NCBI GenBank assembly: GCA_035999335.1
Contig: DASYGV010000094.1
Coordinates: 21,652 to 85,651 of the forward strand
Direction: 5' to 3'
From: Thermoanaerobaculia bacterium
GTDB lineage: Bacteria; Acidobacteriota; Thermoanaerobaculia; Gp7-AA8
DNA: 64,000 bases
Position 1 is the stretch's first letter; each line of letters starts with the position of its first letter. The notes below the pieces were generated by a model. It made no database searches and was not told the DNA's origin. It worked only from the letters and a program-made list of their open reading frames with translations. Position numbers and translations under genes: made by a program. Shown here in pieces: positions 24,821-61,139 of this stretch.

Positions 24821-24984
24821 TGTGGAGTGCGGCAGCATAGCGAAGCGATGCTGCCGCTTTCGATTGCGGCAGCGTCGAGCTGCCGCGGGTGGGGGCCGTC
24901 GCTCGACGCATCGGCAATCAAAAAGCGGCAGCTGACGCCGCGCGAGGGCTTCATTCGACGCGAGAGTGCCGCTGCCGCACTCCA
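24821..24984. repeat. Composite palindromic element with GTGGAGTGCGGCAGC / GCTGCCGCACTCCAC termini
   Basis: 164 bp that exactly fills the gap between convergent stop codons (24816-24818 and 24988-24990). Internal sub-hairpins are built from gctgccgc/gcggcagc. Confidence 0.8.
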
Positions 24985-30628: not shown

Positions 30629-30710
30629 AGTGCTGAGTGCTGGGTGCTGAGTGCTGAGTCGCCCACCCTGCGTGACTCCACACAGCACTCAGCACCCAGC
30701 ACCCAGCACT
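30629..30710. repeat. Hairpin of GTGCTG(A/G) / CAGCAC(C/T) heptamers
   Basis: Left arm agtgctgagtgctgggtgctgagtgctgag (30629-30658) pairs with right arm cagcactcagcacccagcacccagcact (30683-30710). It lies in the divergent region between the 29161-30558 gene and fadE. Confidence 0.8.
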
Positions 30711-39941: not shown

Positions 39942-40014
39942 TGGAGTGCGGAGGCAGCGCCTCCGCTTTCCTATTCACGCGATTGGAAGCGGCGGCCTTG
40001 CCGCCGCACTCCAC
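39942..40014. repeat. Palindromic element TGGAGTGCGGAGGC...GCCGCCGCACTCCA
   Basis: 73 bp filling the gap between the convergent stops of the MgtC-like gene (39937-39939) and the last eCIS gene (40017-40019). Confidence 0.8.
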
Positions 40015-43473: not shown

Positions 43474-43494
43474 GGGAGGTCTCCGTGAGCACGC

Positions 43495-43600
43495 GGAGCG
43501 CCGGCTTCCAGCCGGCCGGTCCGCCGGCATCCTGCCGGCCTTTTCGGTGCATCGTGCCGCCTGGAAGGCGGCGGAGCGGCCGGCTGGAAGCCGGCGCTCC
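43495..43600. repeat. Palindromic element GGAGCGCCGGCTTCCAGCCGGCC...GGCCGGCTGGAAGCCGGCGCTCC
   Basis: 106 bp intergenic between two baseplate genes. Long terminal inverted repeats flank an inner hairpin (ccggcatcctgccgg). Confidence 0.8.
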
Positions 43601-43617
43601 GATAGGAGGCGCTCCAA

Positions 43618-46600
43618 TCACTCTTCATCTTCGATCTCCGTGAGGATGAACAGGTCCGCGAGCTCCGGCGGGATGTACGCGATCTGTGTGAGCTTCGGGA
43701 CGATCGCGTTCACGCCTTCGATGTCCGGTGTACCGAAGCCGCCCTTCTCGCCGGTGAGGTCGATGACTTCGTCCTGCGCGATCGAGCCGAAGAGATCGAG
43801 GTCGACATACGTCACGCCCTCGACTCCCTGGATCGCGGCCACGGCCTCGGCCGGGAAGACGACTTGTCCGAAGTCGCGGCGGTCGTACGAGAAAATGTCG
43901 AGCAGCTTCGCGCGGACCTTCGGTCCGACCGACGTCCAGAGATAGTCGGGATGCACGCGCACTTTCGCGCTGCCGGCGATGACGAGCTTTTCGCGCGGTT
44001 GCACGACGAACGGCTGGTACGGATCGCCGAACCGGCGCAGGGCCTCGACGAGGTTGCGATAGAGATCGGAGTTGACGTCGATCTCGATGTCGCCCGTGCC
44101 GCCGACGGTGACGTGGACGATCTGGCGGCGACCGTCGGTGATCTCGACGGCGACGGCCTTGCTGATTCCGCCGAACGTGCGCGCGAAGTCGGCGTAGTCG
44201 CGCACGGAGACGATGCGTCCCATTGCCTGCAATGAGACCGGGATGCTGCGGCGCGCGTCGTCGCGCGACTCCGGATCCGCGCCGCCGCTCGCGGCGAGCG
44301 GGTTGATCACGTCTTTCACACCGAGCGGGCGCGAGATCGCAGTGGCGATCCGATTCGCGCGGACGTTGCCGGGCTTGCCGATGCCGCTGCGATAAAGCGC
44401 GCGCACGTTGTCGGGACCGGTCGGCAGACGCGAGCCTTCGCGGCCATTGCCGAAGGTCACCGAGACCTTGCCGTCGTCGGCCGTCTTCGTGATGAACACG
44501 CGATCCTGGGCGCCGGTGCCGAAGAACGTGTCCGTCTCGTGCCAGAGGATGTCGTTCACGCGCACGGCCAGCGTCGACTGCACGCCTTCGACCGTCGGCG
44601 CGCTGACGAACGTGAGCGGCGTCTGGTGGAGCGTGAACGTCTGCAGCGCCTTCGCGCCGTCGCCGGCGCCGAGGATCTCCGCGCGCGTGTCGCCGTGCGT
44701 TGCTTTGACGACGTTTGCGTAGACCTTCGCGGTCGAGCGTTTGTACCGGTACTTCATCCCCTCGGGCGCGAGCACGAGCGTGCTGTATGCGCTGCCGCCG
44801 GCGCCGGAATCGGGATGCAGCTCGATCGTCGCGACCATCGCCAGCTCGCTCGAGATCACGCCGGCCGTGCCGGGGATGTCGACGCGCTCGCCGCTGACGA
44901 TCACCCATCGTCCCGGCTCGAGACCTTCGACGACGGCGTCGAGGTCGATGCGCGTCGGACCTTCGTTGCCGTTCCCGTTTGCCGTCGGCTCACCGATCGG
45001 ACGATCGACGGGCTGCTGCGCGAGCGGGAGCTCCTCGCTCTCGAGCAGCACTGTGGTGGGCCGGATGATCGCGAGGTTGCCGACGTTGTTTCCGGCAGGA
45101 AAGTTCGCCCAGTCTCGATCGAACGACAGTCGCGTCGTCTTGCCGCTCATGACGTACGCCGTGCGCGTGCCCGTTTCGACGTCGCGGACCTTGCACACCA
45201 GCGTCGGGGCGACGCTCGTGCTGGGCGCATTCTGTCGCCGCTGCACCAGCGCGTAGCTTCCGCCGCGGACGGCGTCGGCCGGCGAATCGAGATACATCGT
45301 CGAGTTCTCTTCGCTGACGTCGAGGATGGTGGGCATGCCCTCCGGCATCGGCTCTTCGAAGAGCGTCGTCGGCGCGTTGTAGCCGAAGACCGAGGAGCGG
45401 CGGCGGAGGACGTGCATGCTCTGGAACTGCGCGAAGGGGACCGTGCCCGCCGTCGACGCTGCAAGCGCGGCGTGGAACATTCCGGAGACCTGCGGGATGA
45501 ACGAGCCGACGAGCCGCGGCAGGAAATCGGAGCTTGGCTGCAGAGACGTCTGGAGCGAACGGCTGTACTGCCATTTGCTCTTCGGCGCGAGCGCGGACGG
45601 AGCCGCGAGGTTCTTCACGATCGCGCTGACCTTCCACGGCTGCGTCGACGGCGTGATGACGACGTCCGTGTCGTCCGCGGTGATCGCGTCGCGCACGGGT
45701 CCGACATCGTCGATCCACGGCAGCAGTTGGAAGAGCGTGTTGCGCCCGCCGCCGAGGAGGATGTGGTCGACGATCCACTGCAGCACGGTCTCCCGCGGCG
45801 GAGGTGGGATGACGATCGCTTCTTCGGATCCCTTCGTTTTCTTTCTGGTTTTCTTCTCGAGCGGCGCGGGAGCCGGCATTTCCTCGCTGAGCGCCGCGAC
45901 CGCCGCCGCGTACACGTTCAGGTAGTACGGCCGCACCGGATCGAGTGCGACGCTTGTGCGGTCATTTTCGGTGTCGATGGTCGTTTTCATCGCGCGACGC
46001 ATCGCGTGAACGGGCGCGCCGGCGCGTGTGAAGACGAAGAGCAGCGGATCGCCGGCGTTGAGACGCGTGGTCGTTCCCTTGATCCAGACGTTCTCGAGGG
46101 TGAGGACGTTGTCGATCGTGATCGCCTGCGGTTTGCCAAGGCGCGGCTTGAGCGCGTTCCACACGCCGCGCGCTTCGAAGTCCTCGGAGGTCTCGAAGAC
46201 CTGCGGCTTCTCGTCCGCGCCGGGAGTGCTCTGCGCTTTCGAGCCCGCGGGGATGATTGTCTTCGTCGTCGCATCGACCGTGTAGGCGAGGTAGACGCTC
46301 GACGAGACGCCGGGCTTCAGTTTGTATCCGACGAGGCGTCCGAGCTCGAGGATCGAGCGGCGCTCGGTGGCGGTGCGGAGGAAGCCTTCGTTTGCGATGC
46401 GCTCCTGGTAGAAGGTGAGCACGTCGCCGACGGTGGCCCAGGCGTCGAGGAACGCGATCGCGGGATCGTCGGTCTCGCGCGTAGTCAGCGCGGGGATGGT
46501 GCTGAGGCGTCCGATCATGTCCTCGAGGAATGATCCGTGAGTGCCGATGCGATAACGCAGCGCGGAAAGGCCGGGACGGTTCTGCACCGGAATGTGCGGA

Positions 46601-46638
46601 CCGGCGCCGGAAAGACACGCGCAGCAGCCGCAGTTCAT
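43618..46638 (-). CDS. Baseplate J-like protein, paralog 2 (putative baseplate assembly protein)
   Basis: GGAGG lies 8 nt upstream of the ATG at 46638. The N-terminus is MNCGCCACLSGAGPHIPVQNRPGLSALRYRIGTHGSF. Next comes DDPAIAFLDAWATVGDVLTFYQERIANEGFLRTATERRS, the gpJ-type N-domain. The C-terminal J-like block is VSVRDYADFARTFGGISKA. Confidence 0.8.
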   Translation of the reverse strand: MNCGCCACLSGAGPHIPVQNRPGLSALRYRIGTHGSFLEDMIGRLSTIPALTTRETDDPAIAFLDAWATVGDVLTFYQERIANEGFLRTATERRSILELGRLVGYKLKPGVSSSVYLAYTVDATTKTIIPAGSKAQSTPGADEKPQVFETSEDFEARGVWNALKPRLGKPQAITIDNVLTLENVWIKGTTTRLNAGDPLLFVFTRAGAPVHAMRRAMKTTIDTENDRTSVALDPVRPYYLNVYAAAVAALSEEMPAPAPLEKKTRKKTKGSEEAIVIPPPPRETVLQWIVDHILLGGGRNTLFQLLPWIDDVGPVRDAITADDTDVVITPSTQPWKVSAIVKNLAAPSALAPKSKWQYSRSLQTSLQPSSDFLPRLVGSFIPQVSGMFHAALAASTAGTVPFAQFQSMHVLRRRSSVFGYNAPTTLFEEPMPEGMPTILDVSEENSTMYLDSPADAVRGGSYALVQRRQNAPSTSVAPTLVCKVRDVETGTRTAYVMSGKTTRLSFDRDWANFPAGNNVGNLAIIRPTTVLLESEELPLAQQPVDRPIGEPTANGNGNEGPTRIDLDAVVEGLEPGRWVIVSGERVDIPGTAGVISSELAMVATIELHPDSGAGGSAYSTLVLAPEGMKYRYKRSTAKVYANVVKATHGDTRAEILGAGDGAKALQTFTLHQTPLTFVSAPTVEGVQSTLAVRVNDILWHETDTFFGTGAQDRVFITKTADDGKVSVTFGNGREGSRLPTGPDNVRALYRSGIGKPGNVRANRIATAISRPLGVKDVINPLAASGGADPESRDDARRSIPVSLQAMGRIVSVRDYADFARTFGGISKAVAVEITDGRRQIVHVTVGGTGDIEIDVNSDLYRNLVEALRRFGDPYQPFVVQPREKLVIAGSAKVRVHPDYLWTSVGPKVRAKLLDIFSYDRRDFGQVVFPAEAVAAIQGVEGVTYVDLDLFGSIAQDEVIDLTGEKGGFGTPDIEGVNAIVPKLTQIAYIPPELADLFILTEIEDEE

Positions 46639-46652
46639 CGTTTGCCTCCGTT

Positions 46653-46759
46653 GTGGAGTGCGGCGGCAAGGCCGCCGCTTTCGAATACCGTCCGGTAGTC
46701 GGCGACAGTTGCGGTCTTGCCGCGGTCTTTGAAAGCGGCGGTCTTGCCGGCGCACTCCA
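46653..46759. repeat. Palindromic element GTGGAGTGCGGCGGCAAGGCCGCCGC...GCCGGCGCACTCCA
   Basis: 107 bp intergenic between the two J-like baseplate genes. It belongs to the same terminal-motif family as 24821-24984 and 39942-40014. Confidence 0.8.
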
Positions 46760-46762
46760 TAG

Positions 46763-49399
46763 TCAGCGTCCACCTCGCACGTTTCGGAACGACAAAATCC
46801 CGTTTTCTGGCGATACCGGATCGTTGTCGAGCCGGGCGATCTCGTTGGGTTGTAGCGCCGGATCCCCGCCCCCCATCCGCTCGAGCCGCACGACGTGCAC
46901 CTCGGCCACGCCGTCGACGGCCATGACCGCGGCGATGATGCGGCTGACGTAGACGGACTCGCCGAAGAGGAGCTTGTCGGGATGGAAGAACTTTTTCAGC
47001 GCGTCCTTGACCGCGGCGAGGACGTGCGCGCGGAGGTACTTCGGTTTCACGCAGAGATCGAGCTCGAGCCGGATCGGAACGGATCGCGCGGGACCGACGC
47101 GCAGGTCGTGACCCATGCGCCGATAGCGCTCGAGATTGTTCGCGACCTCGTCGCGGAGAACGTCGCTCAGTTCGGGCGTGGCGAACGGATCGACGTGCAC
47201 GCCGGCCTCGTACCAGCTTCCGCTCCACACCAGCGACGCGGCCGCGCCCTGCACACGCGGGTTGCGCATGGGGTAGCGAAGATACTGCGCGAGCGTCGCG
47301 TAATCCTCGCCGGTGATGGCGCGCTGAAGGTCTTTGCGGAACGCCATCGGCGCGAGCATCTTCACCTCCGACACCGGCTCGGGATCGACGGCGCCGGTGG
47401 ACGGCAGCGGATTGCGCACTTTCGCGATGAGGTCGTTTTTCCCCGCGCGGAAGATGATGTGCACGATCGATTCGGCGCCGACGAGTCCCATGCGACCGTT
47501 GCCGTAGCGGTACGTCGCTTCGAACTTCATCCCGACGTCGACAGTGCGGCCGGCGTCGCCGTCGCCGAAGCGAAGATGTGCCGCGCCGTCGTCGTCGATC
47601 TCCGCGACGAAGTGCGGATCGTCGCCGTAGCTGTCGAGGAGATCGGGCTGAGGCAGCCAGGTGATGTGCGGATCGCCTCCGTGGATCGGCGGCGCCTCGC
47701 TCTCGAGCGTTGCCGCCGGCAACGCGGACCGCGGATGCTGTTTGAGCAAGACTGTCGCGGGCGCGTCCTTCATAAAGGGATGGTTCAACGGCTGCGCGAA
47801 TGTGAGCGGCGCGGTCTTCAGCCGCGGACGATAGCGTCCCGCAAGGAATGCGATCTCGGAGAGATCGTCTTCTCCTTCGCACACTTCGTTCACCGGCTGC
47901 TCGGGAACGGGATCGAGCTCTTCGCCGAAGATCGTGAGGCCGTGATCGACGAGGAGGATGTTCCCGCGCGCGACGGCGAGCGGCTCGACGTAATCGCATT
48001 GCGGCGCGGTGCCGATCGCGGAGACGCAGAGCATGAACGGCATCGCGTCCTCGCGCGACCACTCGACCTCGACGACCGGCTGCTCGGGGTCCGGTAGCCG
48101 GTCGATCGATCTCGTGATCTTCGTGATGCGCACGACGTGACGATGCGTGCGGTCGGCGTCGGGTGAAGGTAAGGGTTGATCGAGCGTCGCGGTACCCGCG
48201 CAGGCGAGCTCCTCGAAGAGGAGGAAATCGCCGACGGCGAGGTCGTCGAGCACGCGCGGGCGGTCGGGCGGGGGTGGGGGCGGGGGGCAGTTCTCGTCGT
48301 CTAGGAGTGCGGTGGCGATAGCCGCCGCTCTGGTAGGGTGGGTGGGCGGCGCTGCGGACGTACCAGAGCGGCGACTCGCCGTCGCCGCACTCCTAGATTC
48401 CACCTCCACCGGGTCCTCTTCGATGAACGCATCCACGAGCGTCGCGCGCGTCGCTCCCTTCGGGATGCAGCACTCCTGATTGCCCCAGGTGTAGATGCGG
48501 ATCTCGTTGTGCGCGAGGCGGATCTTCATCGACTTGCGCGCGTCCAGCGGCTCGAACGCGAGCCATCCCGAGGCCTTCTCCACCTCGTGCATCTCGAGCA
48601 CGGTTTCGGTCACGATTTCCGAGTAGCGGGTCACGAAGAAGATCTCGTCCAGCGGCAAGTCGCCGTTGGCCGCGGCCTGGAGGAAGAGGAACGCGCGAGC
48701 GTTGCAGCCGTCGTGCATCGGGTAGTCGACGAGCCGCGCGTGACGACGCACGGAAATGCGCTGGCGCGCGGTGTCGAGATACGCCTCGGTCGCGACCGCG
48801 TCCTGGTAGTAGCTGAGGTAATCGCCGACGTACGCGAGCAGCTCGACGATCGCGATGCCGACGTCGGGCACGTGGCGTTCGCGCCAGTCCGGCATCAGCA
48901 GCGCGAGACGGTCGAGGATGAGCTGCCGGAACGTCGCGTAGTCTTTCGCGAGGTAACTGATCGCGGGCCGTGCATAGTCCGGCGGCGGACAGGCGTCGTC
49001 CTGCTTGCAGTCGATCTCCGCGGGGCAGTCGATCTTGAACGAAAAGTCGAGGCACCGGTAGCGCGGATCGAGCGACGGCACGTCGACGAAGCAGAGCGTG
49101 TACGTCGAGAAGTCGCCCTCGCGATCGAGCTCGATGCCGAGGCAGTCCTGTTCGTAGGTGTCGTCGGTGTCGTGGGGATCGATGTCGATCGCCTTGATGT
49201 CCGTGATGCGACGGCCGCCGCGGATCTCGATGTGCCGCAGCGCGGCATCCTCGTCCTTCTGCAGAAACTCCGGAGGGATCCCGGTGAGGAAGTGGACGCA
49301 GAGATGCTTGCCGGTCACGTCGACGTAGTCGACGCCGTTCTTGCCGCGATCGCGAATGAGCTGGCGGCGCGACTCGTCGCGGCAGGTGAGATCGCTCAT
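46763..49399 (-). CDS. Baseplate J-like protein, paralog 1 (Afp11/Pvc11 equivalent), carrying an in-frame repeat insertion
   Basis: ISYLAKDYATFRQLILDRLALLMPDWRERHVPDVGIAIVELLAYVGDYLSYYQDAVATEAYLDTA is the gpJ N-domain. The C-terminal block is ITGEDYATLAQYL...VYVSRIIAAVMAVDGV. The ATG at 49399 overlaps the gp25-like stop. Confidence 0.8.
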   Translation of the reverse strand: MSDLTCRDESRRQLIRDRGKNGVDYVDVTGKHLCVHFLTGIPPEFLQKDEDAALRHIEIRGGRRITDIKAIDIDPHDTDDTYEQDCLGIELDREGDFSTYTLCFVDVPSLDPRYRCLDFSFKIDCPAEIDCKQDDACPPPDYARPAISYLAKDYATFRQLILDRLALLMPDWRERHVPDVGIAIVELLAYVGDYLSYYQDAVATEAYLDTARQRISVRRHARLVDYPMHDGCNARAFLFLQAAANGDLPLDEIFFVTRYSEIVTETVLEMHEVEKASGWLAFEPLDARKSMKIRLAHNEIRIYTWGNQECCIPKGATRATLVDAFIEEDPVEVESRSAATASRRSGTSAAPPTHPTRAAAIATALLDDENCPPPPPPPDRPRVLDDLAVGDFLLFEELACAGTATLDQPLPSPDADRTHRHVVRITKITRSIDRLPDPEQPVVEVEWSREDAMPFMLCVSAIGTAPQCDYVEPLAVARGNILLVDHGLTIFGEELDPVPEQPVNEVCEGEDDLSEIAFLAGRYRPRLKTAPLTFAQPLNHPFMKDAPATVLLKQHPRSALPAATLESEAPPIHGGDPHITWLPQPDLLDSYGDDPHFVAEIDDDGAAHLRFGDGDAGRTVDVGMKFEATYRYGNGRMGLVGAESIVHIIFRAGKNDLIAKVRNPLPSTGAVDPEPVSEVKMLAPMAFRKDLQRAITGEDYATLAQYLRYPMRNPRVQGAAASLVWSGSWYEAGVHVDPFATPELSDVLRDEVANNLERYRRMGHDLRVGPARSVPIRLELDLCVKPKYLRAHVLAAVKDALKKFFHPDKLLFGESVYVSRIIAAVMAVDGVAEVHVVRLERMGGGDPALQPNEIARLDNDPVSPENGILSFRNVRGGR
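48301..48396. repeat. 96-bp palindromic element CTAGGAGTGCGG...CCGCACTCCTAG inside the baseplate J coding sequence
   Basis: About 85% identical to the intergenic copy at 51772-51868. The 96 bp equal 32 codons and read as SRSAATASRRSGTSAAPPTHPTRAAAIATALL on the minus strand with no stop. Confidence 0.85.
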
Positions 49400-49755
49400 G
49401 CGACCCTCCTCTCGAACGTGTCGGTGCGCACTTCCCCGGTGCGCTTGAGCGCGTATTTGATCGTGATGCGCAGGGTCGAGTCTTCCGACGTCACATCGAG
49501 TGCGAGCAGATCGAGGACGTCGCCGAGGTATTGCTGGATTGCCGCGCGCATCGTGAATTGCAGCGCGGCCGCGAGCTCCGGACTGTTCGGCGCGAAGATG
49601 AGCTGCATCAGGCCGCTGCCGAATTCGGGACGGTTCACGCGCTCGCCCGCGTTCGTGAAGAGGAGCTGCTCGAGCATGTCCCTCACGTGCGCGGCGTCAT
49701 TGCATTCGGCCGTGCGTCCGCGGGTGTCGATGTGGAATGGGAAGTCGATGTTCAT
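49396..49755 (-). CDS. GPW/gp25-family baseplate wedge protein (Afp9 equivalent)
   Basis: 119 aa. FPFHIDTRGRTA...VRDMLEQLLFTNAGERVNRPEFGSGL fits the gp25 lysozyme-fold family pattern. Confidence 0.8.
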   Translation of the reverse strand: MNIDFPFHIDTRGRTAECNDAAHVRDMLEQLLFTNAGERVNRPEFGSGLMQLIFAPNSPELAAALQFTMRAAIQQYLGDVLDLLALDVTSEDSTLRITIKYALKRTGEVRTDTFERRVA

Positions 49756-49776
49756 CGCATCCTCATTGGATATTGA

Positions 49777-50094
49777 TCACTGACCGAGCGCGCGGGTTTG
49801 GCCGGGGATGATGATCAAAGGCACGCCGTTCGGAACCGTGATCGCCTGGCTGTCGGCGAGGATCAACGGCTGCCCGTTCGACAGCACGCGCGTCGAGCCG
49901 GTCATGAACTGCGCGGTGACGCACGGCTGCGGCGACGCGGTCGCGAACGGACATCCGGCGATCACGTACGGCGACGTCATGAGCACGGTCGGCTGGCCCA
50001 TCGCCGTCACGCGCGGGTTGGGCACGGTCGGCATGGCGCGTCCCATGTGCACGCATTGCACGGTGTCGACGGCAGTCACGAGCGGTCCGGGCAT
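49777..50094 (-). CDS. PAAR-like / DUF4280-like spike tip protein (Afp10 equivalent)
   Basis: 105 aa in the position between the spike and gp25 genes. The pattern VQCVHMG...GQP...AGCPF...PC...GSTRVLSNGQPL...GQ resembles DUF4280. Confidence 0.6.
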   Translation of the reverse strand: MPGPLVTAVDTVQCVHMGRAMPTVPNPRVTAMGQPTVLMTSPYVIAGCPFATASPQPCVTAQFMTGSTRVLSNGQPLILADSQAITVPNGVPLIIIPGQTRALGQ

Positions 50095-50107
50095 GGGTCT
50101 CCTTTGA

Positions 50108-50632
50108 TCACACGATCGTCAGTGCGCCGTTGTTGATGGTGACGGTGGGGCCGATCATCGTGATCGATCCCCCCTTGCCGTTGTCGATGTAGATGCCGGT
50201 GTCGTTGACGGTGATGGACGCGCCGGTGAGCGACTTGAGGATGATTCCGCCGGTCGGTCCGGGGAGGTCGCTGATGATCACGCGGTTCTGCAGCGTGGTC
50301 TGCATGACGATGCTGGGGCTGACGGGATTGTTCGTGATCGAAGCCTTGGTCGCGTCGGTCGGCAGTTCGGCCTCGATGCCCCAGAAGCAGCCGCTCCAGA
50401 TCGGCTTGTCGGGATCGCCGCCTTCGAACTCGACCCAGACGCCGGATCCGATCTGAGGCACGAACGAGGTACCCATCAGTTTTCCGGCGAGCGGGTAACA
50501 GGGCATGCACCAGCTCGTGGGCAGCAGCGAAGAGACCGCGGGGACGGACGCGAGGATGCGGCCGATGCCCATCGGGTCGAGGTTGTTCAGCACCGTGCCG
50601 CGGTGCTTGCCAAAGAACTTGTGCACGCTCAT
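50108..50632 (-). CDS. gpV/gp5-type baseplate spike protein (OB-fold plus beta-helix needle)
   Basis: FGKHRGTVLNNLDPMGIGRILASVP...GSGVWVEFEGGDPDKPIWSGCFW is the classic Phage_base_V motif. The C-terminal region has repetitive beta-strands. Confidence 0.85.
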   Translation of the reverse strand: MSVHKFFGKHRGTVLNNLDPMGIGRILASVPAVSSLLPTSWCMPCYPLAGKLMGTSFVPQIGSGVWVEFEGGDPDKPIWSGCFWGIEAELPTDATKASITNNPVSPSIVMQTTLQNRVIISDLPGPTGGIILKSLTGASITVNDTGIYIDNGKGGSITMIGPTVTINNGALTIV

Positions 50633-51759
50633 ACCGGGACCCTCGGTGTAATCGACACGAGACCGTTGCGGACGAGCGAGAAGTTCTGTTTGTACTCGCC
50701 CCGCTTGATGGTGTGGGTGACGCTCTTGACGAAGTAGAGACCGTCGAACGCCGGGCCTGCGCCGCGTACGCCGACGAGCTTGCGCGCCTTGAGCACGCGA
50801 CCGTATCGCGCGACGTCGAGCGTGCCGCTCGCGGACGCGGCGTCGGCGCTCTGCGACGCGCGCGCGAGCGCCGCGAGGATCGCCTGCGCGGGATTGCGGC
50901 GCGCGGAGTCGCGGTCGATCTCGATGTTCTTCGGGATCGGCGGCACGAGTCCGAGGGGAGGTGAGAGCGGGTTGACGTTCGGGATCGGGATGGGGATGCC
51001 GACCTTCAGCTCCTTCGGAAAGATCATCACGATCGGCAGCGTCGCGTCCTCGGCGTCGAAGTTGAAGCTCATCGACTCGACGTTCGTCTCCGCGTCCATG
51101 TTCGTGTTCAGCGCCGGCTGCGGCACGCCGATGCGGATCGACGGCCCCCAGTACGCGACGCTCTGCAGCGGCAACGGACCGGGATCGACGTAGAACTCGT
51201 AGCCGGAGAGCTCGGCGAGGTATTTGATGTAGTCGAGGTCCGTTCCTTGCTGCCGCGGGATCTCCTCGGTGGGGATGGGAACGTCGGGGATGATCGCGGG
51301 AAGGACGATCGGCGTGACGCCGAAGATCATGTACTTCGCGAGCATCGCCATCACGCGCACGTTCGCGGGCATGGCCGGGTAGGGAAGACCGTCGAGCGGG
51401 AGATAGCTCATCAGCTTCGAAAGGTCTTCGCCGGTAACGGTGAGCGTCGACTGGCTGCCGCCGTCCCCGCCGCCGACTTGCTGATGCGTGATGACGCCGT
51501 CCATCAGCACGTCCGGCATTCCGTTGATGATCACGAGGATGACGACGCGCATGATCGGCAACTGCGATCCGCCGCCGAGGAGGAAGAGCGTATGCAGCGG
51601 AGATTTCGTGGAGAGCGTGAACGAGAGTTGAAACACGCTCGCGCCCTGCGTGTTGCTGGTGACGCTGACCGAGGTGAGAGCCTCCAGTACCGCGCGCGGC
51701 ACGGGAACCGGCACCCCAGGGCCGATCATGAGCTGGAGGTAGAAGGGAGGATTAGGCAT
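50629..51759 (-). CDS. gpD-like (late control D / VgrG N-terminal-like) baseplate hub protein
   Basis: 376 aa. The C-terminal GLYFVKSVTHTIKRGEYKQNFSLVRNG matches the gpD family ending. It sits directly upstream of, and overlaps, the gpV-like gene. Confidence 0.7.
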   Translation of the reverse strand: MPNPPFYLQLMIGPGVPVPVPRAVLEALTSVSVTSNTQGASVFQLSFTLSTKSPLHTLFLLGGGSQLPIMRVVILVIINGMPDVLMDGVITHQQVGGGDGGSQSTLTVTGEDLSKLMSYLPLDGLPYPAMPANVRVMAMLAKYMIFGVTPIVLPAIIPDVPIPTEEIPRQQGTDLDYIKYLAELSGYEFYVDPGPLPLQSVAYWGPSIRIGVPQPALNTNMDAETNVESMSFNFDAEDATLPIVMIFPKELKVGIPIPIPNVNPLSPPLGLVPPIPKNIEIDRDSARRNPAQAILAALARASQSADAASASGTLDVARYGRVLKARKLVGVRGAGPAFDGLYFVKSVTHTIKRGEYKQNFSLVRNGLVSITPRVPV

Positions 51760-51771
51760 GGGGTGCCCCTT

Positions 51772-51868
51772 CTAGGAGTGCGGCGGCGTCGAGCCACCGC
51801 TCTGGTAGGGTGGGTGGTCGGCGCTCCGGACGTACCAGAGCGGTGGCTCGACGCCACCGCACTCCTAG
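51772..51868. repeat. 97-bp palindromic element CTAGGAGTGCGG...CCGCACTCCTAG (intergenic copy)
   Basis: Lies between the LysM-like gene stop and the gpD-like gene start. It shares the central ctggtagggtgggtgg..cggcgc..cggacgtaccag core with 48301-48396. Confidence 0.85.
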
Positions 51869-51869
51869 A

Positions 51870-52208
51870 CTAAACATTCACTCCCTCCGGTAACGCGATC
51901 GCGAGCCTTCGCCCGATCGTCTCCGTCAATTCGTCCGGTCGCATCGCGCGGTTCGCGTCGGCGATGCGCCAGAAGAGCTCCGGATCGCCGAGGTAGCGAG
52001 CGGCGATGTGGTCGAGGCGCTCGCCCTGCATGACCATGTGCTCGCCGATGATCGACAGGCGCTCCGGCAGCGGCACGAATCGGCGGCGCACGTAAGCGTG
52101 GGTCTCGCCGTCGATCTCGATCTTCGCGATCTCGAGTCCGGCGTAGCGGCTGGTCGGACCGAACGGCGACAGCGGAATGACGAATTGCAGCGCGAGCACG
52201 TCGCTCAT
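51870..52208 (-). CDS. LysM-like / tail protein X-like small protein
   Basis: HMVMQGERLDHIAARYLGDPELFWRIADANRAMRPDELTETIGRRLAIALP fits the LysM/gpX pattern. 112 aa. It overlaps the upstream gene by 4 nt. Confidence 0.65.
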   Translation of the reverse strand: MSDVLALQFVIPLSPFGPTSRYAGLEIAKIEIDGETHAYVRRRFVPLPERLSIIGEHMVMQGERLDHIAARYLGDPELFWRIADANRAMRPDELTETIGRRLAIALPEGVNV

Positions 52209-52855
52209 GGGATCGCTCCTACTCCGATGTCTTTCAGCGCGCCGGACGGCGGGATCTTCGCGAAGGTCTCCTTGACGCGCTGATAGGCGAGATAGATCGA
52301 GCTGCCGCGGTGATCGAAGCCGAGGTCGGTGACGCTCAGTACGCGCATGCCGAGGCTCACTTTTGCGCGGATGGGATTGAGCTTCGTGTCGAACGCCTCC
52401 TCGGTGATCGAGAAGTCGGTGATGCGCACCGGCACGATGCGCGACGCGCTCCAGACGAACAGCACGAGCGGCTGTTCCATCGGCAGGATCTCGAGCACGC
52501 CGCTCGCGGCGAGCGCGTGATTCGAGAGGAGTTGCGTCGTCGTCGGATAGAGGATCATCTCCAACGCGGAGAGCTCGGGGAAGATGCCGGACTGCAGCAC
52601 CGTCGCCCCGGGCTTCGCGACTTCGAGTTGATCGGTCGCGTCGATCTCCGCGTCGATCTTCAGCGTCTCGACCGCGGGTCCCTTGAGGCGCAGCACTTCC
52701 GAGCGATCGCCGGATTCGCCTCCGGTGGCCTGCACCGCCAGCGTGCGCGCGAGCGAGTCGGGTGTGTACTGCATGACGATCACGCGCGCGATGTTCGACG
52801 TGAGCGGATCGAGCAGCACGAGGCCGGCCTTGAGCGTGGAAGGAGTAATGGTCAT
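52205..52855 (-). CDS. CIS tube-fold protein (tube initiator, Afp7/Pvc7 N-domain-like)
   Basis: LKAGLVLLDP...VIVMQYTPDSLARTL and LVLFVWSASRIVPVRITDFSITEEAFDTKLNPIRAKVSLGMRVL fit the contractile-injection tube-protein pattern (xFxFNPxxL ... PVxIxSLxIxExxF). Confidence 0.65.
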   Translation of the reverse strand: MTITPSTLKAGLVLLDPLTSNIARVIVMQYTPDSLARTLAVQATGGESGDRSEVLRLKGPAVETLKIDAEIDATDQLEVAKPGATVLQSGIFPELSALEMILYPTTTQLLSNHALAASGVLEILPMEQPLVLFVWSASRIVPVRITDFSITEEAFDTKLNPIRAKVSLGMRVLSVTDLGFDHRGSSIYLAYQRVKETFAKIPPSGALKDIGVGAIP

Positions 52856-52862
52856 CGGCGCC

Positions 52863-54302
52863 TCACTTGATCTCCTCGCAGAGCGTCACTGGCATGTCGA
52901 ACTTCTTCAGCGTCTCCGGTTGGATCTTCTGGGGCCCGGCGCAGTCGGTCCGCTTCGAGGAGAAGAGCTGGGCCTCCTTGGTGTACTTCGCCCGGGCGGC
53001 CGTGTACTCGCTCCATCGCGCCAGGAAATCCTTGTCGAGGGTGCCGGTCTGTCCGTCGAACTGCGGAACGGGATGCGTGCGCACGTACTCGATCAGATCG
53101 AGTCCGTGTTGACCCTCATGGAAGCGCGTGGAGGTCGTGCCGGCGAACTTGTCCTCGGGTGTGGTGCCGCGGCCGTAGCCGGCCGGATCGCTCGGCCCCC
53201 CGCCCGGACCGTAGACGGTCTTGATGAAGACCGTCGTGCGGGGTGGCGTAACGGTGAAGCTCTGGACGATGTTGGTGTTCGTATCGATCGTGTGCTCGAG
53301 CTGCGAGTCGACGAACTTGATGCCGGTGTACGCGTGATTGCGGTAGTTCTCGTCCTTCGAATACTCATCGGGGTCGACGCGAACGTCCGTGCCGCCGATC
53401 TGGAACGCGGCCGAGCCGCTCGGCTCGACCGTTGCCGTGACCGGAATGGGCGTCGTGATGCCCTGCAGCTGCACGATGCGTTGGATCTGCTTCTGCACTT
53501 TCGGATCGACGGCGCTCCGGACGTAGTCCTGCAGTTCGTCCGGTGAAAGCGATCGCAGACGCTCCATGAGCGCGGCGCTGCTGAAGTCGGCGTCGGTGAG
53601 CGTGAGGGCCTCGACTTCACGGCGGTTCGCGCCGCTGAAGTTGTCCCAAAGCCGATCGCGCCCGATCGCGGCAACGATGTCCATCCGCTCGGGCGACCTT
53701 CGCAACAGCGTGTTGATCGAGCGCTCGTCGAGGAACGTCGTCCAGCCGTGCAGCATGTCCTCGATGAGCCAGACCTTCGTGTCCTTGTCGAAAGGCGTGT
53801 CGAACTCTTTCTCGCGCGAGACGCACGCGCGGGCCATGTTGTCGCTGAAGAGACTCTTCTGCGGTCCCTTTCTCTCCTTCATGCCGTCGACGTATTTCTT
53901 CAGGTCCTCGAAGGGAAAGGCCTCCAGTCCGAAGAGGCGTGGAACGAACAGGACGACGTCGAGGAACGTGCTCCACGCGGAGAGTTGGATCTGCGGCCGC
54001 TGCTCGACGACGTGTTGCAGTTCGTGATCGAGCAGCGCCATGCCGTGCGCCGTGGACGGCGCGTACATCCCGCGCCCGAACGCGATGTCGCTGCCGAACG
54101 TCCACGCGCGCGCGTCGAAGGATTCCGCCGAGCGTGCTGCGTGCTCATCGTCGTGCACGCGCACGCGGCTGAAGTCGTGCTGGAAGCGGGACTCGAATCG
54201 CGCGCGCACCGGTGCATCGAGCGGCTTGCCGGGCGAGCGGAGCACGTCACTGGCGCTCCACGGTGCCGCGGAAGGCCGTTGCCGTTGCGCGAACGCGCTC
54301 AT
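52863..54302 (-). CDS. DUF4157 (HExxH) protein with a C-terminal domain carrying a second HExxH; putative eCIS cargo
   Basis: Start is the ATG at 54302, overlapping the upstream TGA. GKPLDAPVRARFESRFQHDFSRVRVHDDEHAARSAESFDARAWTFGSDIAFGRGMYAPSTAHGMALLDHELQHVVEQ is a canonical DUF4157. The C-terminal domain has FHEGQHGLD. The track ORF start at 55007 is a spurious Arg-rich extension. Confidence 0.8.
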   Translation of the reverse strand: MSAFAQRQRPSAAPWSASDVLRSPGKPLDAPVRARFESRFQHDFSRVRVHDDEHAARSAESFDARAWTFGSDIAFGRGMYAPSTAHGMALLDHELQHVVEQRPQIQLSAWSTFLDVVLFVPRLFGLEAFPFEDLKKYVDGMKERKGPQKSLFSDNMARACVSREKEFDTPFDKDTKVWLIEDMLHGWTTFLDERSINTLLRRSPERMDIVAAIGRDRLWDNFSGANRREVEALTLTDADFSSAALMERLRSLSPDELQDYVRSAVDPKVQKQIQRIVQLQGITTPIPVTATVEPSGSAAFQIGGTDVRVDPDEYSKDENYRNHAYTGIKFVDSQLEHTIDTNTNIVQSFTVTPPRTTVFIKTVYGPGGGPSDPAGYGRGTTPEDKFAGTTSTRFHEGQHGLDLIEYVRTHPVPQFDGQTGTLDKDFLARWSEYTAARAKYTKEAQLFSSKRTDCAGPQKIQPETLKKFDMPVTLCEEIK

Positions 54303-54886
54303 GCGTGGCCTCCTGCGAACCGCACGATCAGAATCGCGAGCGCGCTCAGCGCGCAGATCCACTGCGCCTCGGAGACGCCGAGCCAGCGCCGGCGCTCGTC
54401 GTCGCGGAAGTATTCGAGCGTGAACCGCGCGATTGCGTACGCGATGACGTAGAACGCGAAACCGTAGATCGCCGTTAAGGCGGCGATGACGAACAGCGTC
54501 GCCGATTCGACGTATTGCACGCGCACGCGTCCGACGCGTCCGTGACAACAACCCGCGCTCGCGCAACCGATGCGCCCGATCGCCTGCGCGATCGCGAGCG
54601 CGAGCGCGAGCAGATCGAGCGCGGAGGGAAGCATCACCATCGTCGCTGCGACGGTCGCGAGCTGATAGTGCAGGAACGAGAACGACTCGACGCCGAACAG
54701 CACCTTGGTCATCGCCGCGAGGAACAGCGCGACGCACACGGCGAACGCGGCGACCGCGATCCACAACAGCGGCGTGAGTCCCGCGCGCGTGGCGAAGAGC
54801 GTCGTGACCGCGATGCCCGTCACGCTGCCGCCGAGGACGCAGGTGCGGTAGGAGAGCAAGCTCACGCGGGACATGGCGGCGGCCAC
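54299..54886 (-). CDS. Short Lgt-family (prolipoprotein diacylglyceryl transferase-like) membrane protein
   Basis: Five to six TM helices. AIGRIGCASAGCCHGR and LEYFRDDERR resemble the Lgt GR(I/L)GCxxxGCCxG and EFFR motifs. At 195 aa it is shorter than canonical Lgt. The start is ambiguous (54886 or 54874). Confidence 0.6.
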   Translation of the reverse strand: MAAAMSRVSLLSYRTCVLGGSVTGIAVTTLFATRAGLTPLLWIAVAAFAVCVALFLAAMTKVLFGVESFSFLHYQLATVAATMVMLPSALDLLALALAIAQAIGRIGCASAGCCHGRVGRVRVQYVESATLFVIAALTAIYGFAFYVIAYAIARFTLEYFRDDERRRWLGVSEAQWICALSALAILIVRFAGGHA

Positions 54887-57654: not shown

Positions 57655-57663
57655 CGTTCGCCC

Positions 57664-59295
57664 TCAGGAAGCGGGGATGAGCAGCCGTTTGCCGATCGGC
57701 AGCAACGTGTCGGGAGGAAGTCCGGGATTGGCGCGGCGGAGCGACGACAGCGGGATCTCCCACATCTTCGCGATCTCCCACAGCGTCTCGTCCTTGATGA
57801 CCTCGTGGTAGAAGACGTTGCGGATGATGACGAAGGAGTCCGGCTCCTCGTCGACGCTGTGGTGGCGCTCTCCTTCCCCGCGGAAGATTTGATCGAGGAT
57901 GTTCGCCTCGGCGATGCCGCAGCGGCGTGCGATCGACTTGAGCGTCTCGCCTTTCTTGATGTCGTAGTACGAGCTGAAAGCCGAATCGATCATGCCGGGC
58001 GCATCGATCGGCTCGACGCCAGCCTCGCCTTTGCGGATGCCGAGGCTGTTGCGCTTCGTCGAATGCTCGCGGCGGATGCGATTCTCGACGTCGACGGCCG
58101 ACTCCTTCCCCTTCGGCGTCTGCGTGTGACGGCTCGCGAAGAACGTATCGAACGCGTGCTCGGTCATCACGTGGCCGCAGAGCTCGTGCGCGAAGATCAG
58201 CCACGGCGGATCGCGAAGGATCTGCGAGCGTCCGCTGCCGGAGAGCGGACTCGTGGCCGCGGCCCCTTCGATCTTGTCGTGCTCGCGTCCGGAGACGCCG
58301 ATGTGCGTTTCGGTTCGTGCGCCGCGCGGCCCGAGGGTCATGCCTTGGCCGCGGTCTTCGGTGCCGGACACGTTGATCGTCTCGGTCTTCCCGGCCTCCT
58401 CTCCCGGCGCTGTGAACGAATCGCCGGTGTGAAGGTGGACATCGGGCGCGCCGTCCGCGGTGATGTCGCAGAGGCATTTGCAGGAGACCGGTTTGCCGCT
58501 GCGGCGGAACGAAGTGCGCTTCATCTCGTCGCGGCAGAAGGCCTCGCGGTTCGGCGACGAGAGGACGCCGCTCGCGGAGTCGATCTTCCAGCCGCCGCCG
58601 GGGCACAACGTGTCGATCCAGGTCTGCGCGAGCTGCGCGTTCGTGAGAACAGGCAGCGCGGGATCGCGGCCGGCCGGCTGGTTGGGCGCGTCCTTTCCCG
58701 CGTCTGCGACGGTCATCTTGCGCTGCACGCGGCCGGCGTCTCCGCCCTGCTGCCCGACGTGTGCGAGCTCGTGCGCGAGAAGACGCCGTCCCGCTTCCGT
58801 GTGCGGCGCGTATTCGCCGTGATTGAAGACGATGTGCGAGCCGACGGTGTACGCGCGCGCAGTTACCGCACGGGCCGACTCCGCGGCTTCGGCATCGTCG
58901 TGCACGCGAATGGCGGCGAGTGACCGGGGGGCCGGCGCCTCGCCGGCCGTACCGCCGGCCCCCGGCCTGCGAGGCGCCGGCGCGACGGCCGCCGAGGCGG
59001 CGGCACCCCAGTTGTCCGCTTCCTGCTCGAATGCATCGCCAACCTCGCCGACGGCGAGCTTTTGCGGTCCAACCGACGGGACGCGCGTGAAGTCGTGCGC
59101 GAACCGCGGCTCGAAGAACGCACGCGTGTCGGAGTCGAGCGGACGTCCCGGCGTCGCGAGCACCCGCCGCACGGGCGCTGTCGCTTCGCCGCGGCAGGAG
59201 CGACACGCTCCGCCGCAACCGCACTTGCGTTGCACGGTCAGACCGGTGCTTCGGTCGGAGTCAGAAGTGCGGCGGGCGTGCTGATGCTCGTTCAT
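57664..59295 (-). CDS. DUF4157 / HExxGH-domain / double-LysM protein, tandem paralog A
   Basis: The N-terminus is QHARRTSDSD...[15 protein letters not shown]. Next comes [23 protein letters not shown], then [16 protein letters not shown]...[12 protein letters not shown]. The middle domain has FAHELCGHV and VENRIRREH. Two C-terminal LysM-like repeats are YDIKKGETLKSIARRCGI and HEVIKDETLWEIAKMWEI. Confidence 0.8.
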   Translation of the reverse strand: MNEHQHARRTSDSDRSTGLTVQRKCGCGGACRSCRGEATAPVRRVLATPGRPLDSDTRAFFEPRFAHDFTRVPSVGPQKLAVGEVGDAFEQEADNWGAAASAAVAPAPRRPGAGGTAGEAPAPRSLAAIRVHDDAEAAESARAVTARAYTVGSHIVFNHGEYAPHTEAGRRLLAHELAHVGQQGGDAGRVQRKMTVADAGKDAPNQPAGRDPALPVLTNAQLAQTWIDTLCPGGGWKIDSASGVLSSPNREAFCRDEMKRTSFRRSGKPVSCKCLCDITADGAPDVHLHTGDSFTAPGEEAGKTETINVSGTEDRGQGMTLGPRGARTETHIGVSGREHDKIEGAAATSPLSGSGRSQILRDPPWLIFAHELCGHVMTEHAFDTFFASRHTQTPKGKESAVDVENRIRREHSTKRNSLGIRKGEAGVEPIDAPGMIDSAFSSYYDIKKGETLKSIARRCGIAEANILDQIFRGEGERHHSVDEEPDSFVIIRNVFYHEVIKDETLWEIAKMWEIPLSSLRRANPGLPPDTLLPIGKRLLIPAS

Positions 59296-59304
59296 CGTTC
59301 GTCC

Positions 59305-60885: not shown

Positions 60886-61139
60886 TTCGCGCCTCCCACG
60901 CCGCCGTACACCGAGCCCGCGATCGACGTGCCGAGTTGTTGGACGTCGTTCGCCAAGGAGATCCGCGGCGCGCGCACGCTCGGCACGGCGATGCCTCGAG
61001 CGAGCGCTGGCGAGATGCCGCCGCTTGCGATTAGCCTTGCGAGCTCCGCCTCGATCGCCGCCTGCAATCGCGGACGATCGGCGGCGCGCACGTTGACGCC
61101 GTCGAGCACGAGGCGGTCGATGTGCAGGCGGACGCTCAT
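60882..61139 (-). CDS. 85-aa conserved-looking hypothetical coupled between the ATPase and the cargo genes
   Basis: [37 protein letters not shown]. It has ATGA overlaps at both ends (61136-61139 and 60882-60885), which argues that it is translated. Confidence 0.55.

What the first reader, a model, noticed from the sequence alone, without database searches (positions are those of the whole stretch)
48301..48396. Palindromic repeat element inserted in frame inside the baseplate J gene
The 96-bp element ctaggagtgcggtggcgatagccgccgctctggtagggtgggtgggcggcgctgcggacgtaccagagcggcgactcgccgtcgccgcactcctag is a copy of the intergenic element at 51772-51868. It lies inside ORF 46763-49399.

Its length is exactly 32 codons. 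In the gene frame both terminal CTAG sites are read as tCT AGg and CTC CTA Gac, so no stop is created. The element encodes SRSAATASRRSGTSAAPPTHPTRAAAIATALL and abuts a CPPPPPPPDRP linker. This looks like a MITE/REP-type element that landed in the one permissive frame of a surface loop of a structural protein and has been tolerated or exapted. It could equally be an assembly or annotation trap.
Basis: seen in the sequence. Interest (0 to 1): 0.7.

Follow-up and report, generated by a model that had tools for sequence, protein, structure and literature searches.

The report
Palindromic repeat translated inside baseplate gene
A 96-base palindromic repeat of the REP/REPIN type sits in frame inside a tail-like injection-system baseplate gene of a soil acidobacterium, adding 32 residues to a linker that already varies in length; this is a real but ordinary example of a behaviour already described for such repeats.

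Summary
Window 48301-48396 is a 96-nt palindrome, 88% identical to the copy at 51772-51868. It lies in ORF 46763-49399 (-) as codons 335-366, in the only stop-free frame.

It belongs to a dispersed family. I found 46 more copies (81-109 nt) in Thermoanaerobaculia/Acidobacteriota MAGs and soil metagenomes. Each has two inverted REP-like hairpin units (8-bp stems with compensatory changes) around a variable spacer, which is REPIN architecture.

The closest orthologues (85% and 81% identity) lack the 32 residues. None of 96 homologues carries them. The site is a low-complexity interdomain linker of 2-76 residues. AlphaFold gives low confidence there. Codon-position GC in the insert is non-coding-like. 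Both gene halves keep all invariant residues, and dN/dS is 0.15-0.18.

An independent contig, 100% identical, starts inside the element's loop. That confirms one junction and explains a truncated 496-aa gene call.

A second in-frame copy (O-antigen ligase) and a C-terminal read-through copy exist elsewhere. In 19 of 37 neighbouring genes the terminal CTAG supplies the stop codon.

Both behaviours are already published for REPs. The mobilising enzyme and target rule remain unresolved, and there is no evidence of exaptation.

The parts
48301..48396 (.). Intragenic palindromic element, 96 nt (CTAG...CTAG), flanked by T and A
48309..48328 (.). REP-like hairpin unit of one arm: GCGGTGGC-GATA-GCCGCCGC (7 of 8 pairs), preceded by CTAGGAGT
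   Evidence: the same arm variant occurs in L047
48336..48360 (.). Central spacer (25 nt), shared with the 51772 copy and with L012/L040/L041/L025 but not with the rest of the family
48368..48388 (.). REP-like hairpin unit of the other arm: GCGGCGAC-TCGCC-GTCGCCGC (8 of 8 pairs), followed by ACTCCTAG
   Evidence: the arm is identical to L012
48302..48397 (-). The 32 element-derived codons (residues 335-366) of the baseplate protein
46763..49399 (-). Host gene: 878-aa gp6/baseplate-J-like wedge protein of an eCIS-type cluster
48251..48430 (-). Hypervariable interdomain linker (residues 324-383) that holds the insert. The native CPPPPPPPDRP tract is 48257-48289
51772..51868 (.). Sibling copy, 97 nt, between the stop codon of the 112-aa gene (TAG, 1 nt away) and the RBS/ATG of the 376-aa gene
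46655..46758 (.). Related element (core GGAGTGCG...CACTCC) filling the gap between this gene's stop (46763-46765) and GGAGG+ATG (46636-46638) of the next baseplate gene
39943..40012 (.). Further copy of the wider family (GGAGTGCGG...CCGCACTCC, 70 nt)
24824..24983 (.). Further copy of the wider family (160 nt, several hairpins)

Best explanation
A non-autonomous palindromic repeat of REP/REPIN type inserted into the coding sequence of the gp6-like baseplate wedge gene of an eCIS-type cluster in a Thermoanaerobaculia-like acidobacterium. The element has two inverted REP-like hairpin units around a variable spacer.

Shown:
- It is a normal member of a dispersed family.
- It is absent from the closest orthologues.
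- It is 96 nt, so the downstream frame is kept.
- It is read in the only frame in which the terminal CTAGs are not stop codons.
- It lies in a low-complexity interdomain linker whose length varies from 2 to 76 residues among homologues.
- The rest of the gene looks intact and constrained.

Inferred:
- The 32 extra residues are translated as a disordered extension of the linker and are tolerated (neutral or mildly costly) rather than selected.
- The mRNA carries a strong hairpin at that point, which ribosomes must unwind.
- Copies are made by a trans-acting enzyme, most plausibly a RAYT/TIRYT-type HUH tyrosine transposase acting on the hairpins in single-stranded DNA. That step is not shown.
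For: Family and structure:
- Exact sequence, frame and second copy are confirmed.
- 7 more loci occur in Thermoanaerobaculia/Acidiferrales MAGs and 39 in soil metagenomes, with the same termini, lengths of 81-109 nt and unrelated flanks.
- The nearest relative of the intragenic copy is at another locus (L012, 92% identical), so it is not a local duplicate.
- 84 of 90 arms have a perfect 8-bp stem. There are 7 stem variants. 3 of 8 pairs change on both sides, 99.6% of cells are paired, and 0 of 500 shuffles reach the covariation score. The two arms of one element often carry different variants.

Insertion into the gene:
- P0001 and P0002 lack the segment.
- DNA homology to the L001 orthologue breaks at 48284/48418, with 99 extra nt in the window.
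- No homologue has an SRSA...ATALL peptide. The linker is 2-76 aa, median 43. It is 60 aa here and would be 28 aa without the insert.
- Insert GC by codon position is 0.59/0.88/0.66, against 0.69/0.44/0.85 for the gene.
- The AlphaFold model has mean pLDDT 82. The insert falls at pLDDT 42-55 between domains at 90 or above. The fold matches CIS/T4 gp6 baseplate proteins.

Gene still intact:
- All invariant columns of a 97-sequence alignment are kept on both sides of the insert.
- dN/dS against L001 is 0.15 for the N-terminal half and 0.18 for the C-terminal half.

Assembly:
- An independent contig that is 100% identical carries the half-element joined to the C-terminal half of the gene.

Precedents in the same family and in the literature:
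- L013 has a 96-nt copy read in the same frame inside an O-antigen ligase. L016 reads through a copy to the distal CTAG.
- Intragenic REP dimers encoding 20-30 aa, and REP termini supplying TAG stops, are already described (PMC3733652). REPIN architecture is described in PMC3337134.
Against: - No empty site is available at more than 85% identity, so the insertion is inferred from orthologues and not seen as a polymorphism.
- The extra length relative to L001 is 99 nt, not 96.
- No target-site duplication and no mobilising gene were found.
- Gene-end copies imply a pre-existing CTAG at the target. The reading frames around this copy instead require a net gain that is a multiple of 3, which a simple CTAG target does not give.
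- The N-terminal junction is not confirmed by the second assembly.
- Transcription, translation and function of the full-length protein are untested.
- The tag is CTAG, not the canonical GTAG of RAYT-associated REPs.
Confidence: 0.8

Rival explanations
1. Exaptation. The insert is kept because the longer or altered linker changes baseplate geometry or interactions, or because the mRNA hairpin tunes expression of this low-copy baseplate protein.
For: The gene is intact and constrained. The resulting linker length of 60 aa is within the natural range. A short helix is predicted at residues 357-367. Related elements occupy operon junctions in several orthologous clusters.
Against: The insert has non-coding codon-position GC. 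It is a typical family member with intact REP hairpins. It is absent from every homologue. Its predicted confidence is low. Nothing separates selection from tolerance.
Confidence: 0.1
2. The insertion has inactivated the gene or cluster. The ORF stays open only because stop codons are rare in 65% GC DNA.
For: High-GC genomes give long chance ORFs. The sense-strand RNA hairpin is about -63.5 kcal/mol and could impede translation or attract RNase III. Three repeat elements lie in this operon.
Against: All invariant residues are retained on both sides. dN/dS is 0.15-0.18 in both halves. GC3 is 0.85, typical of coding sequence. Neighbouring eCIS genes are intact. However, dN/dS averages over the time before the insertion.
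Confidence: 0.06
3. Assembly artefact. The element was introduced or misplaced by the assembler at a repeat or palindrome.
For: The JGI contig breaks exactly in the element's loop. Copies often lie at contig ends (L003, L030, L039).
Against: The flanks are colinear with orthologous genes. The second contig carries the same half-element fused to the same coding sequence at 100% identity. The two arms differ in stem variant and loop length, so this is not a fold-back duplicate. Length and frame are exactly compatible with the ORF.
Confidence: 0.03
4. The 32 residues are ancestral coding sequence, and the intergenic copies derive from it.
For: None beyond the sequence similarity itself.
Against: 46 other copies are overwhelmingly intergenic, at unrelated loci in several genomes. 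All homologues lack the segment. The codon-position GC is non-coding-like.
Confidence: 0.01

Closest known systems
REPs / REP dimers / REPINs (Bertels & Rainey 2011, PMC3337134, PMC3116915; GTAG-tagged REPs, Di Nocera et al. 2013, PMC3733652)
   Same: - Two short GC-rich hairpin units lie in inverted orientation around a spacer that differs between copies.
- Total length is about 90-110 nt.
- Copies are mostly extragenic and abut gene ends.
- An xTAG tag at the end of the unit often supplies the TAG stop codon of the flanking ORF.
- Occasional copies lie inside ORFs and encode 20-30 aa, proposed to be neutral when in flexible linkers.
   Different: - The tag is CTAG (or TGT/TAT/TTTT in sister sub-families), not GTAG.
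- It sits 4 nt from the stem.
- No RAYT or TIRYT gene flanked by these units was found in the DNA held.
- The host phylum, Acidobacteriota (Thermoanaerobaculia), is not among those listed for GTAG REPs in that survey.
Rickettsia palindromic elements (RPE; Ogata et al. 2000, 2002, as summarised in PMC10969869)
   Same: A palindromic repeat is inserted in frame in protein-coding genes, adding a peptide at a site compatible with the fold.
   Different: RPEs are about 100-150 bp, CGTC-tagged and frequently intragenic (nearly half of the copies in three of the ten RPE families). Here 2 of 41 unique copies are read through. There is no expected sequence relationship and the host is a different phylum.
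Bacterial MITEs (Correia/NEMIS, ERIC, BOX, Nezha; review PMC10969869)
   Same: A small non-autonomous repeat with identical inverted termini, able to make in-frame fusions and to influence neighbouring genes.
   Different: No target-site duplication and no parent IS with the same ends were found. Conservation lies in sub-terminal hairpins that covary within each arm, which points to an HUH/REP-type element rather than a DDE-type one.

Membership tests
REPIN / REP dimer | [quoted passage not shown] | tested here: met
   All 46 copies with the GCGG hairpin have one unit in each arm.
REPIN / REP dimer | Each REP has its own short palindromic core maintained as a hairpin | tested here: met
   84 of 90 arms have 8/8 pairs. 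99.6% of cells are paired. 3 pairs show changes on both sides, and 0 of 500 shuffles reach the covariation score.
REPIN / REP dimer | Spacer differs between copies but the whole element folds as a hairpin | tested here: met
   Spacers are unrelated outside sub-families. MFE is -0.6 to -1.0 kcal/mol per nt for all 41 unique copies. Shuffle z-scores are -6 and -12 for the two window copies.
REPIN / REP dimer | Many copies per genome, predominantly extragenic | tested here: inconclusive
   There are 5 copies of the wider family in 64 kb and 4 exact-termini copies in one fragmented MAG. 39 of 41 unique copies are not read through. No complete genome was available for a count.
REPIN / REP dimer | Cognate RAYT (or TIRYT) tyrosine transposase gene flanked by the repeats | not testable with these tools
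   No HUH...Y motif ORF occurs in about 360 kb of held DNA. No recurrent transposase family appears among 112 neighbouring ORFs.
GTAG-tagged REP super-family (PMC3733652) | Unpaired GTAG tetranucleotide at one end of the stem-loop | tested here: not met
   The tag is CTAG in this sub-family, and other flanks occur in sister sub-families. This matches 3 of 4 bases of the consensus.
MITE (DDE-transposon derivative) | Terminal inverted repeats | tested here: met
   The 12-nt termini are identical in all copies by search design. T at -1 (45 of 47) and A at +1 (46 of 48) were not imposed by the search.
MITE (DDE-transposon derivative) | Target-site duplication | tested here: inconclusive
   There is no direct repeat outside the palindromic CTAG. 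Gene-end copies fit a pre-existing CTAG, but the frames around the intragenic copy do not.
MITE (DDE-transposon derivative) | Autonomous IS with the same ends | not tested
   Only short-spaced termini were searched. No solo distant pairs occur in held loci.
gp6 / baseplate-J-like wedge protein (host gene) | Family profile match and fold | tested here: met
   TIGR02243 at E 1e-75. PDB sequence hit 9gtp_1K. Foldseek hits 9gtp_1G at E 4e-22, 5iv5 gp6 and 6j0n_J. Pfam Baseplate_J itself is not matched at E<=0.001.

The most novel reading that the evidence does not exclude
The CTAG-tagged sub-family is a gene-end-seeking element of Acidobacteriota that homes to the rare CTAG at stop codons and acts as a portable stop/3'-end module. 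On this reading, the in-frame baseplate copy has been co-opted to lengthen the wedge-protein linker or to throttle translation of a low-stoichiometry baseplate subunit in an injection system.
Probability: 0.06. Interest if true: 0.5.

Novelty: new member of a known kind. Interest (0 to 1): 0.3.

Why it matters
The practical value is for annotation.
- These repeats break assemblies in the middle of genes.
- They truncate gene calls. The same gene is recorded elsewhere as a 496-aa fragment.
- They over-extend neighbouring ORFs. The next baseplate gene lists as 1051 aa instead of 1006 aa.

Biologically, the finding adds an uncultured soil phylum and a structural protein of a contractile injection system to the list of hosts where REP-type palindromes become coding sequence. 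It also gives a defined repeat family with 48 aligned copies. That set could be used to look for the cognate tyrosine transposase in Acidobacteriota. It does not reveal a new mechanism.

Tried and rejected
- Known RNA family: Rfam gave no hit at E<=10 over 47800-52400.
- Viral contigs: the pattern gave no match.
- Mobilising gene: an HUH/Y motif scan of all held DNA found nothing. A Pfam scan of 112 neighbouring ORFs showed only housekeeping families among the recurrent ones. That listing shows only the 25 commonest families, so a single transposase could have been missed.
- Empty site and target rule:
  - The closest homologues of the L013 ligase (68% identical) and of the L007 6-phosphogluconate dehydrogenase (80% identical) are too distant.
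  - A simple T|A join explains the frames at 48301-48396 but not the native stop codons at gene ends.
  - A CTAG or TA duplication explains the gene ends but would leave the ancestral baseplate gene frameshifted.
  - I left this unresolved.
- Weakened hairpin in coding copies: the window copy ranks 34 of 41 for stability, but L013 ranks 10 of 41, so there is no trend.
- Apparent degeneration of one arm: it is a normal stem variant shared with L012.
- Translational bypass, intein or intron: there are no matching take-off/landing codons, the frame used has no stop, and 96 nt has no coding or catalytic capacity (sequence inspection).
- Local copy of the 51772 element: rejected because L012 is closer.
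Full report
**1. Observation**

A 97-nt copy in the same orientation lies at 51772-51868, and the two are 88% identical. The shared 21-mer and the 12-nt termini CTAGGAGTGCGG / CCGCACTCCTAG occur only at these two elements in the window. Chance expectation is 0.00 and 0.25 matches.

ORF 46763-49399 on the minus strand encodes 878 aa. The element supplies codons 335-366, read TCT AGG ... CTC CTA and then GAC. The peptide is SRSAATASRRSGTSAAPPTHPTRAAAIATALL, followed by DDEN and the CPPPPPPPDRP tract. On that strand the other two frames are closed by the TAG inside the terminal CTAGs. Folded as sense-strand RNA with 10-nt flanks, the intragenic copy gives -63.5 kcal/mol (z -6.0). The intergenic copy gives -88.4 kcal/mol (z -12.4).

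**2. The host gene**

The ORF has no Pfam family at E<=0.001. It does match TIGR02243 'putative baseplate assembly protein' at E 1e-75 and, weakly, a 'baseplate protein J-like' chain of PDB entry 9gtp. I built an AlphaFold model from a 97-sequence alignment (mean pLDDT 82, pTM 0.68). It matches the following:
- the Streptomyces coelicolor CIS baseplate chain 9gtp_1G (E 4e-22);
- T4 gp6 (5iv5, 3h2t);
- the PVC baseplate (6j0n_J).

The neighbours are a gp25-like protein, a Phage_base_V spike, a second TIGR02243 protein, four or five eCIS_core (DUF4157) proteins and an AAA ATPase. The gene is therefore the gp6-like wedge protein of an extracellular-contractile-injection-system-type cluster. The nearest named homologues and the repeat-bearing genomes are Thermoanaerobaculia (Acidobacteriota) MAGs.

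**3. A dispersed repeat family**

I scanned for the two termini 55-85 nt apart. This found 7 loci in GTDB species genomes (three Thermoanaerobaculia MAGs and one Ca. Acidiferrales MAG), 39 loci in soil and rhizosphere metagenomes, and none in viral contigs.

- The 48 copies are 81-109 nt long, with 96 the commonest length, and sit in unrelated flanks.
- The base before the element is T in 45 of 47 copies, and the base after is A in 46 of 48. The search did not impose either.
- The closest relative of the intragenic copy is L012 at another locus (92% identical), ahead of the window's own second copy (88%). So it is not a local duplication.
- A wider family shares the core GGAGTGCGG...CCGCACTCC but has other outer bases (TGT/ACA, TAT, TTTT/AAA). 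It has three more copies in the window, at 24824-24983, 39943-40012 and 46655-46758. It also occupies operon junctions in the orthologous clusters L001, L049/L050 and L051.

**4. Architecture**

Each arm reads CTAGGAGT, then an 8-bp stem with a 2-6 nt loop, then TCTGG.

- With the loop length fitted, 84 of 90 arms have 8/8 pairs and 6 have 7/8. Seven stem variants occur (GCGGCGGC, GCGGTGGC, GCGGCGAC, GCGGTAGC, GCGGGAGC, GCGGCAGC, GCGGAGGC), each with the complementary 3' half.
- On an alignment of the 68 distinct arms, 99.6% of cells pair. Three of the eight pairs change on both sides (35 cells), and 0 of 500 shuffles reach the covariation score.
- The two arms of one element frequently carry different variants. 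The inter-arm halves are identical in only 30 of 88 comparisons.

What is maintained, then, is the small hairpin within each arm. The element is two REP-like units in inverted orientation around a spacer that differs between copies and often has its own palindrome. This is the architecture described for REPINs, including the point that spacers differ between copies yet still form a hairpin (PMC3337134). No Rfam family matches.

**5. Evidence for insertion into a tolerant site**

- In a 25-sequence alignment, the two closest full-length homologues (P0001 at 85% and P0002 at 81% identity) have a gap across the segment. More distant homologues have unrelated charged or proline-rich sequence of varying length.
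- At DNA level, homology between the window and the P0001 locus (L001) breaks between 48284 and 48418. The window has 133 nt there and L001 has 34 nt, so the window has 99 extra nt.
- Between the conserved anchors D323 and L384, the linker is 2-76 residues long in 97 homologues, with a median of 43. It is 60 here and would be 28 without the insert. No homologue contains an SRSA...ATALL-type peptide.
- The model has pLDDT 42-55 over residues 331-370, with a short helix at 357-367. This stretch lies between domains at pLDDT 90 or above.
- Codon-position GC in the insert is 0.59/0.88/0.66, against 0.69/0.44/0.85 for the whole gene. The segment has not been shaped as coding sequence.
- The gene keeps every invariant column of the 97-sequence alignment on both sides of the insert. 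dN/dS against the L001 orthologue is 0.15 for residues 1-322 and 0.18 for residues 384-878. That estimate also covers time before the insertion.

**6. Assembly and annotation**

A JGI contig (sample 3300035076, 31.3 kb) is 100% identical to the window over all 11,582 nt fetched. It begins at window position 48344, inside the element's central spacer.

- This independently confirms the junction between the element and the C-terminal half of the gene.
- It shows that an assembler broke at the palindrome.
- It explains why the protein database holds this gene only as a 496-aa C-terminal fragment (P0017).

The two arms differ in stem variant and loop length, so the element is not a fold-back artefact. 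The N-terminal junction has no second witness.

**7. Family behaviour around genes**

Among 41 unique copies, 15 have a length divisible by 3. In these, only the frame that reads xCT AGG at the start is ever open (12 of 15 on each strand). 'One permissive frame' is therefore a family property.

- **Second read-through copy.** L013 1069-1164 is 96 nt and is read in the same relative frame (SRSAVAS...RATALL). It lies inside an O-antigen ligase that JGI called full length (PF04932), in a variable loop between predicted membrane helices.
- **C-terminal read-through.** In L016/L038 an amidohydrolase-like gene reads through a 96-nt copy in another frame and stops at the distal CTAG.
- **Stop codons supplied by the element.** Of 37 gene 3' ends within 400 nt of a copy, 19 use the TAG of the terminal CTAG as their stop. 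Five more have their stop codon one base before the element.
- **Frame bias.** Among genes that reach the element, 19 of 23 are in the immediate-stop frame, where one third would be expected (binomial P = 1.7e-6).
- **Both ends used.** In L004, L006, L007 and L035, both convergent genes stop in the two CTAGs.
- **Native C-termini.** The 6-phosphogluconate dehydrogenase and biotin carboxylase next to such copies run to the end of their Pfam domains, so their C-termini look native.
- **CTAG scarcity.** CTAG is about 20-fold under-represented in the window, with 10 sites against 204 expected. Four of the ten belong to the two elements.

Both behaviours are already described for REPs (Di Nocera et al. 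2013, PMC3733652):
- REP termini supply TAG stop codons to flanking ORFs.
- REP dimers inside ORFs encode 20-30 aa and are probably neutral in flexible linkers.

In-frame palindromes are best known from Rickettsia RPEs (PMC10969869).

**8. Mechanism and its limits**

Shown: family membership, absence from orthologues, a frame-compatible length, a single open frame, a disordered variable site, and an intact, constrained host gene.

Inferred: the protein is made with a 32-residue longer linker and still works, and the insertion is tolerated rather than selected.

How copies are made is unresolved.
- No target-site duplication lies outside the palindromic CTAG.
- No HUH/Y1 motif ORF occurs in the roughly 360 kb of DNA held.
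- No recurrent transposase appears among 112 neighbouring ORFs.
- Covarying sub-terminal hairpins favour a RAYT/TIRYT-type single-strand mechanism. TIRYT genes are known in Acidobacteria (PMC3733652). This is an argument from resemblance only.
- Gene-end copies fit insertion at a pre-existing (T)CTAG(A). The conserved frames on both sides of the baseplate copy need a net gain that is a multiple of 3. A plain T|A join (GAA TAC GAC) gives that, and a CTAG target does not. I could not reconcile the two, because no empty site closer than 80-85% identity exists in the databases searched.

**9. Verdict**

The finding is a new member of a well-known kind. It is useful mainly as an annotation warning and as a defined repeat family for an under-studied phylum. 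It does not point to a new mechanism.

Noticed in passing
window 46655-46758 (and ORF 43618-46773): A related palindromic element fills the gap between the stop of the 878-aa gene (TGA, 46763-46765) and GGAGG plus ATG (46636-46638) of the next baseplate gene. The mechanical ORF list over-extends that gene to 1051 aa through the element, whereas JGI called 1006 aa plus a spurious 41-aa ORF. The same junction carries a related element in L001 7180-7292, L049 near 3800-3914 and L051 3161.
   Followed up: partly
window 24824-24983 and 39943-40012: Two more copies of the wider family (core GGAGTGCGG...CCGCACTCC with TGT/TAT outer bases). Each has TAG triplets 3-5 nt outside both ends, probably the stops of convergent genes.
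   Followed up: partly
whole window: CTAG is about 20-fold under-represented, with 10 sites against 204 expected from base composition. Four of the ten are the ends of the two elements. Unoccupied TCTAGA occurs only 3 times in 299 kb of related loci.
   Followed up: partly
L049 1040-1230 compared with window 49370-49430, L001 and L051: In one orthologous cluster a related element is inserted into the ATGA stop/start overlap between gp25 and the baseplate gene. (G)CGCATGA is present on both sides, which is a possible target duplication or a selected regeneration of RBS plus start.
   Followed up: partly
window 52863-60885 and 61136-63676: There are four or five paralogous proteins with the eCIS_core (PF13699/DUF4157) domain, two of them with C-terminal LysM. 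They include a recent tandem pair (300 nt at 93% identity, 58747-59046 and 60376-60675). An AAA ATPase with a winged-helix domain follows.
   Followed up: partly
window 43494-43601 and 30629-30710: Two other strong inverted repeats are unrelated to this family. One has 46-nt arms just downstream of the second baseplate gene. The other is a palindrome built from AGTGCTG heptamers.
   Followed up: no
L001 2055-2187: The intergenic site that holds the 51772 copy in the window is occupied in the 85%-identical orthologous cluster by different hairpin repeats (CTCTCCCC...GGGGAGAG type). This suggests the junction is a recurrent landing place.
   Followed up: no
P0031 (homologue), linker region: The same interdomain linker is expanded in another homologue by three tandem copies of PDPEYQDKRGYRQEP. 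This is a different route to linker lengthening.
   Followed up: no
L037 2782-2863 and L039 16-109: Two elements share the 12-nt CTAGGAGTGCGG termini but have unrelated interiors with no GCGG hairpins, and they have palindromic flanks. The terminal module may therefore be exchangeable between different palindromes.
   Followed up: no
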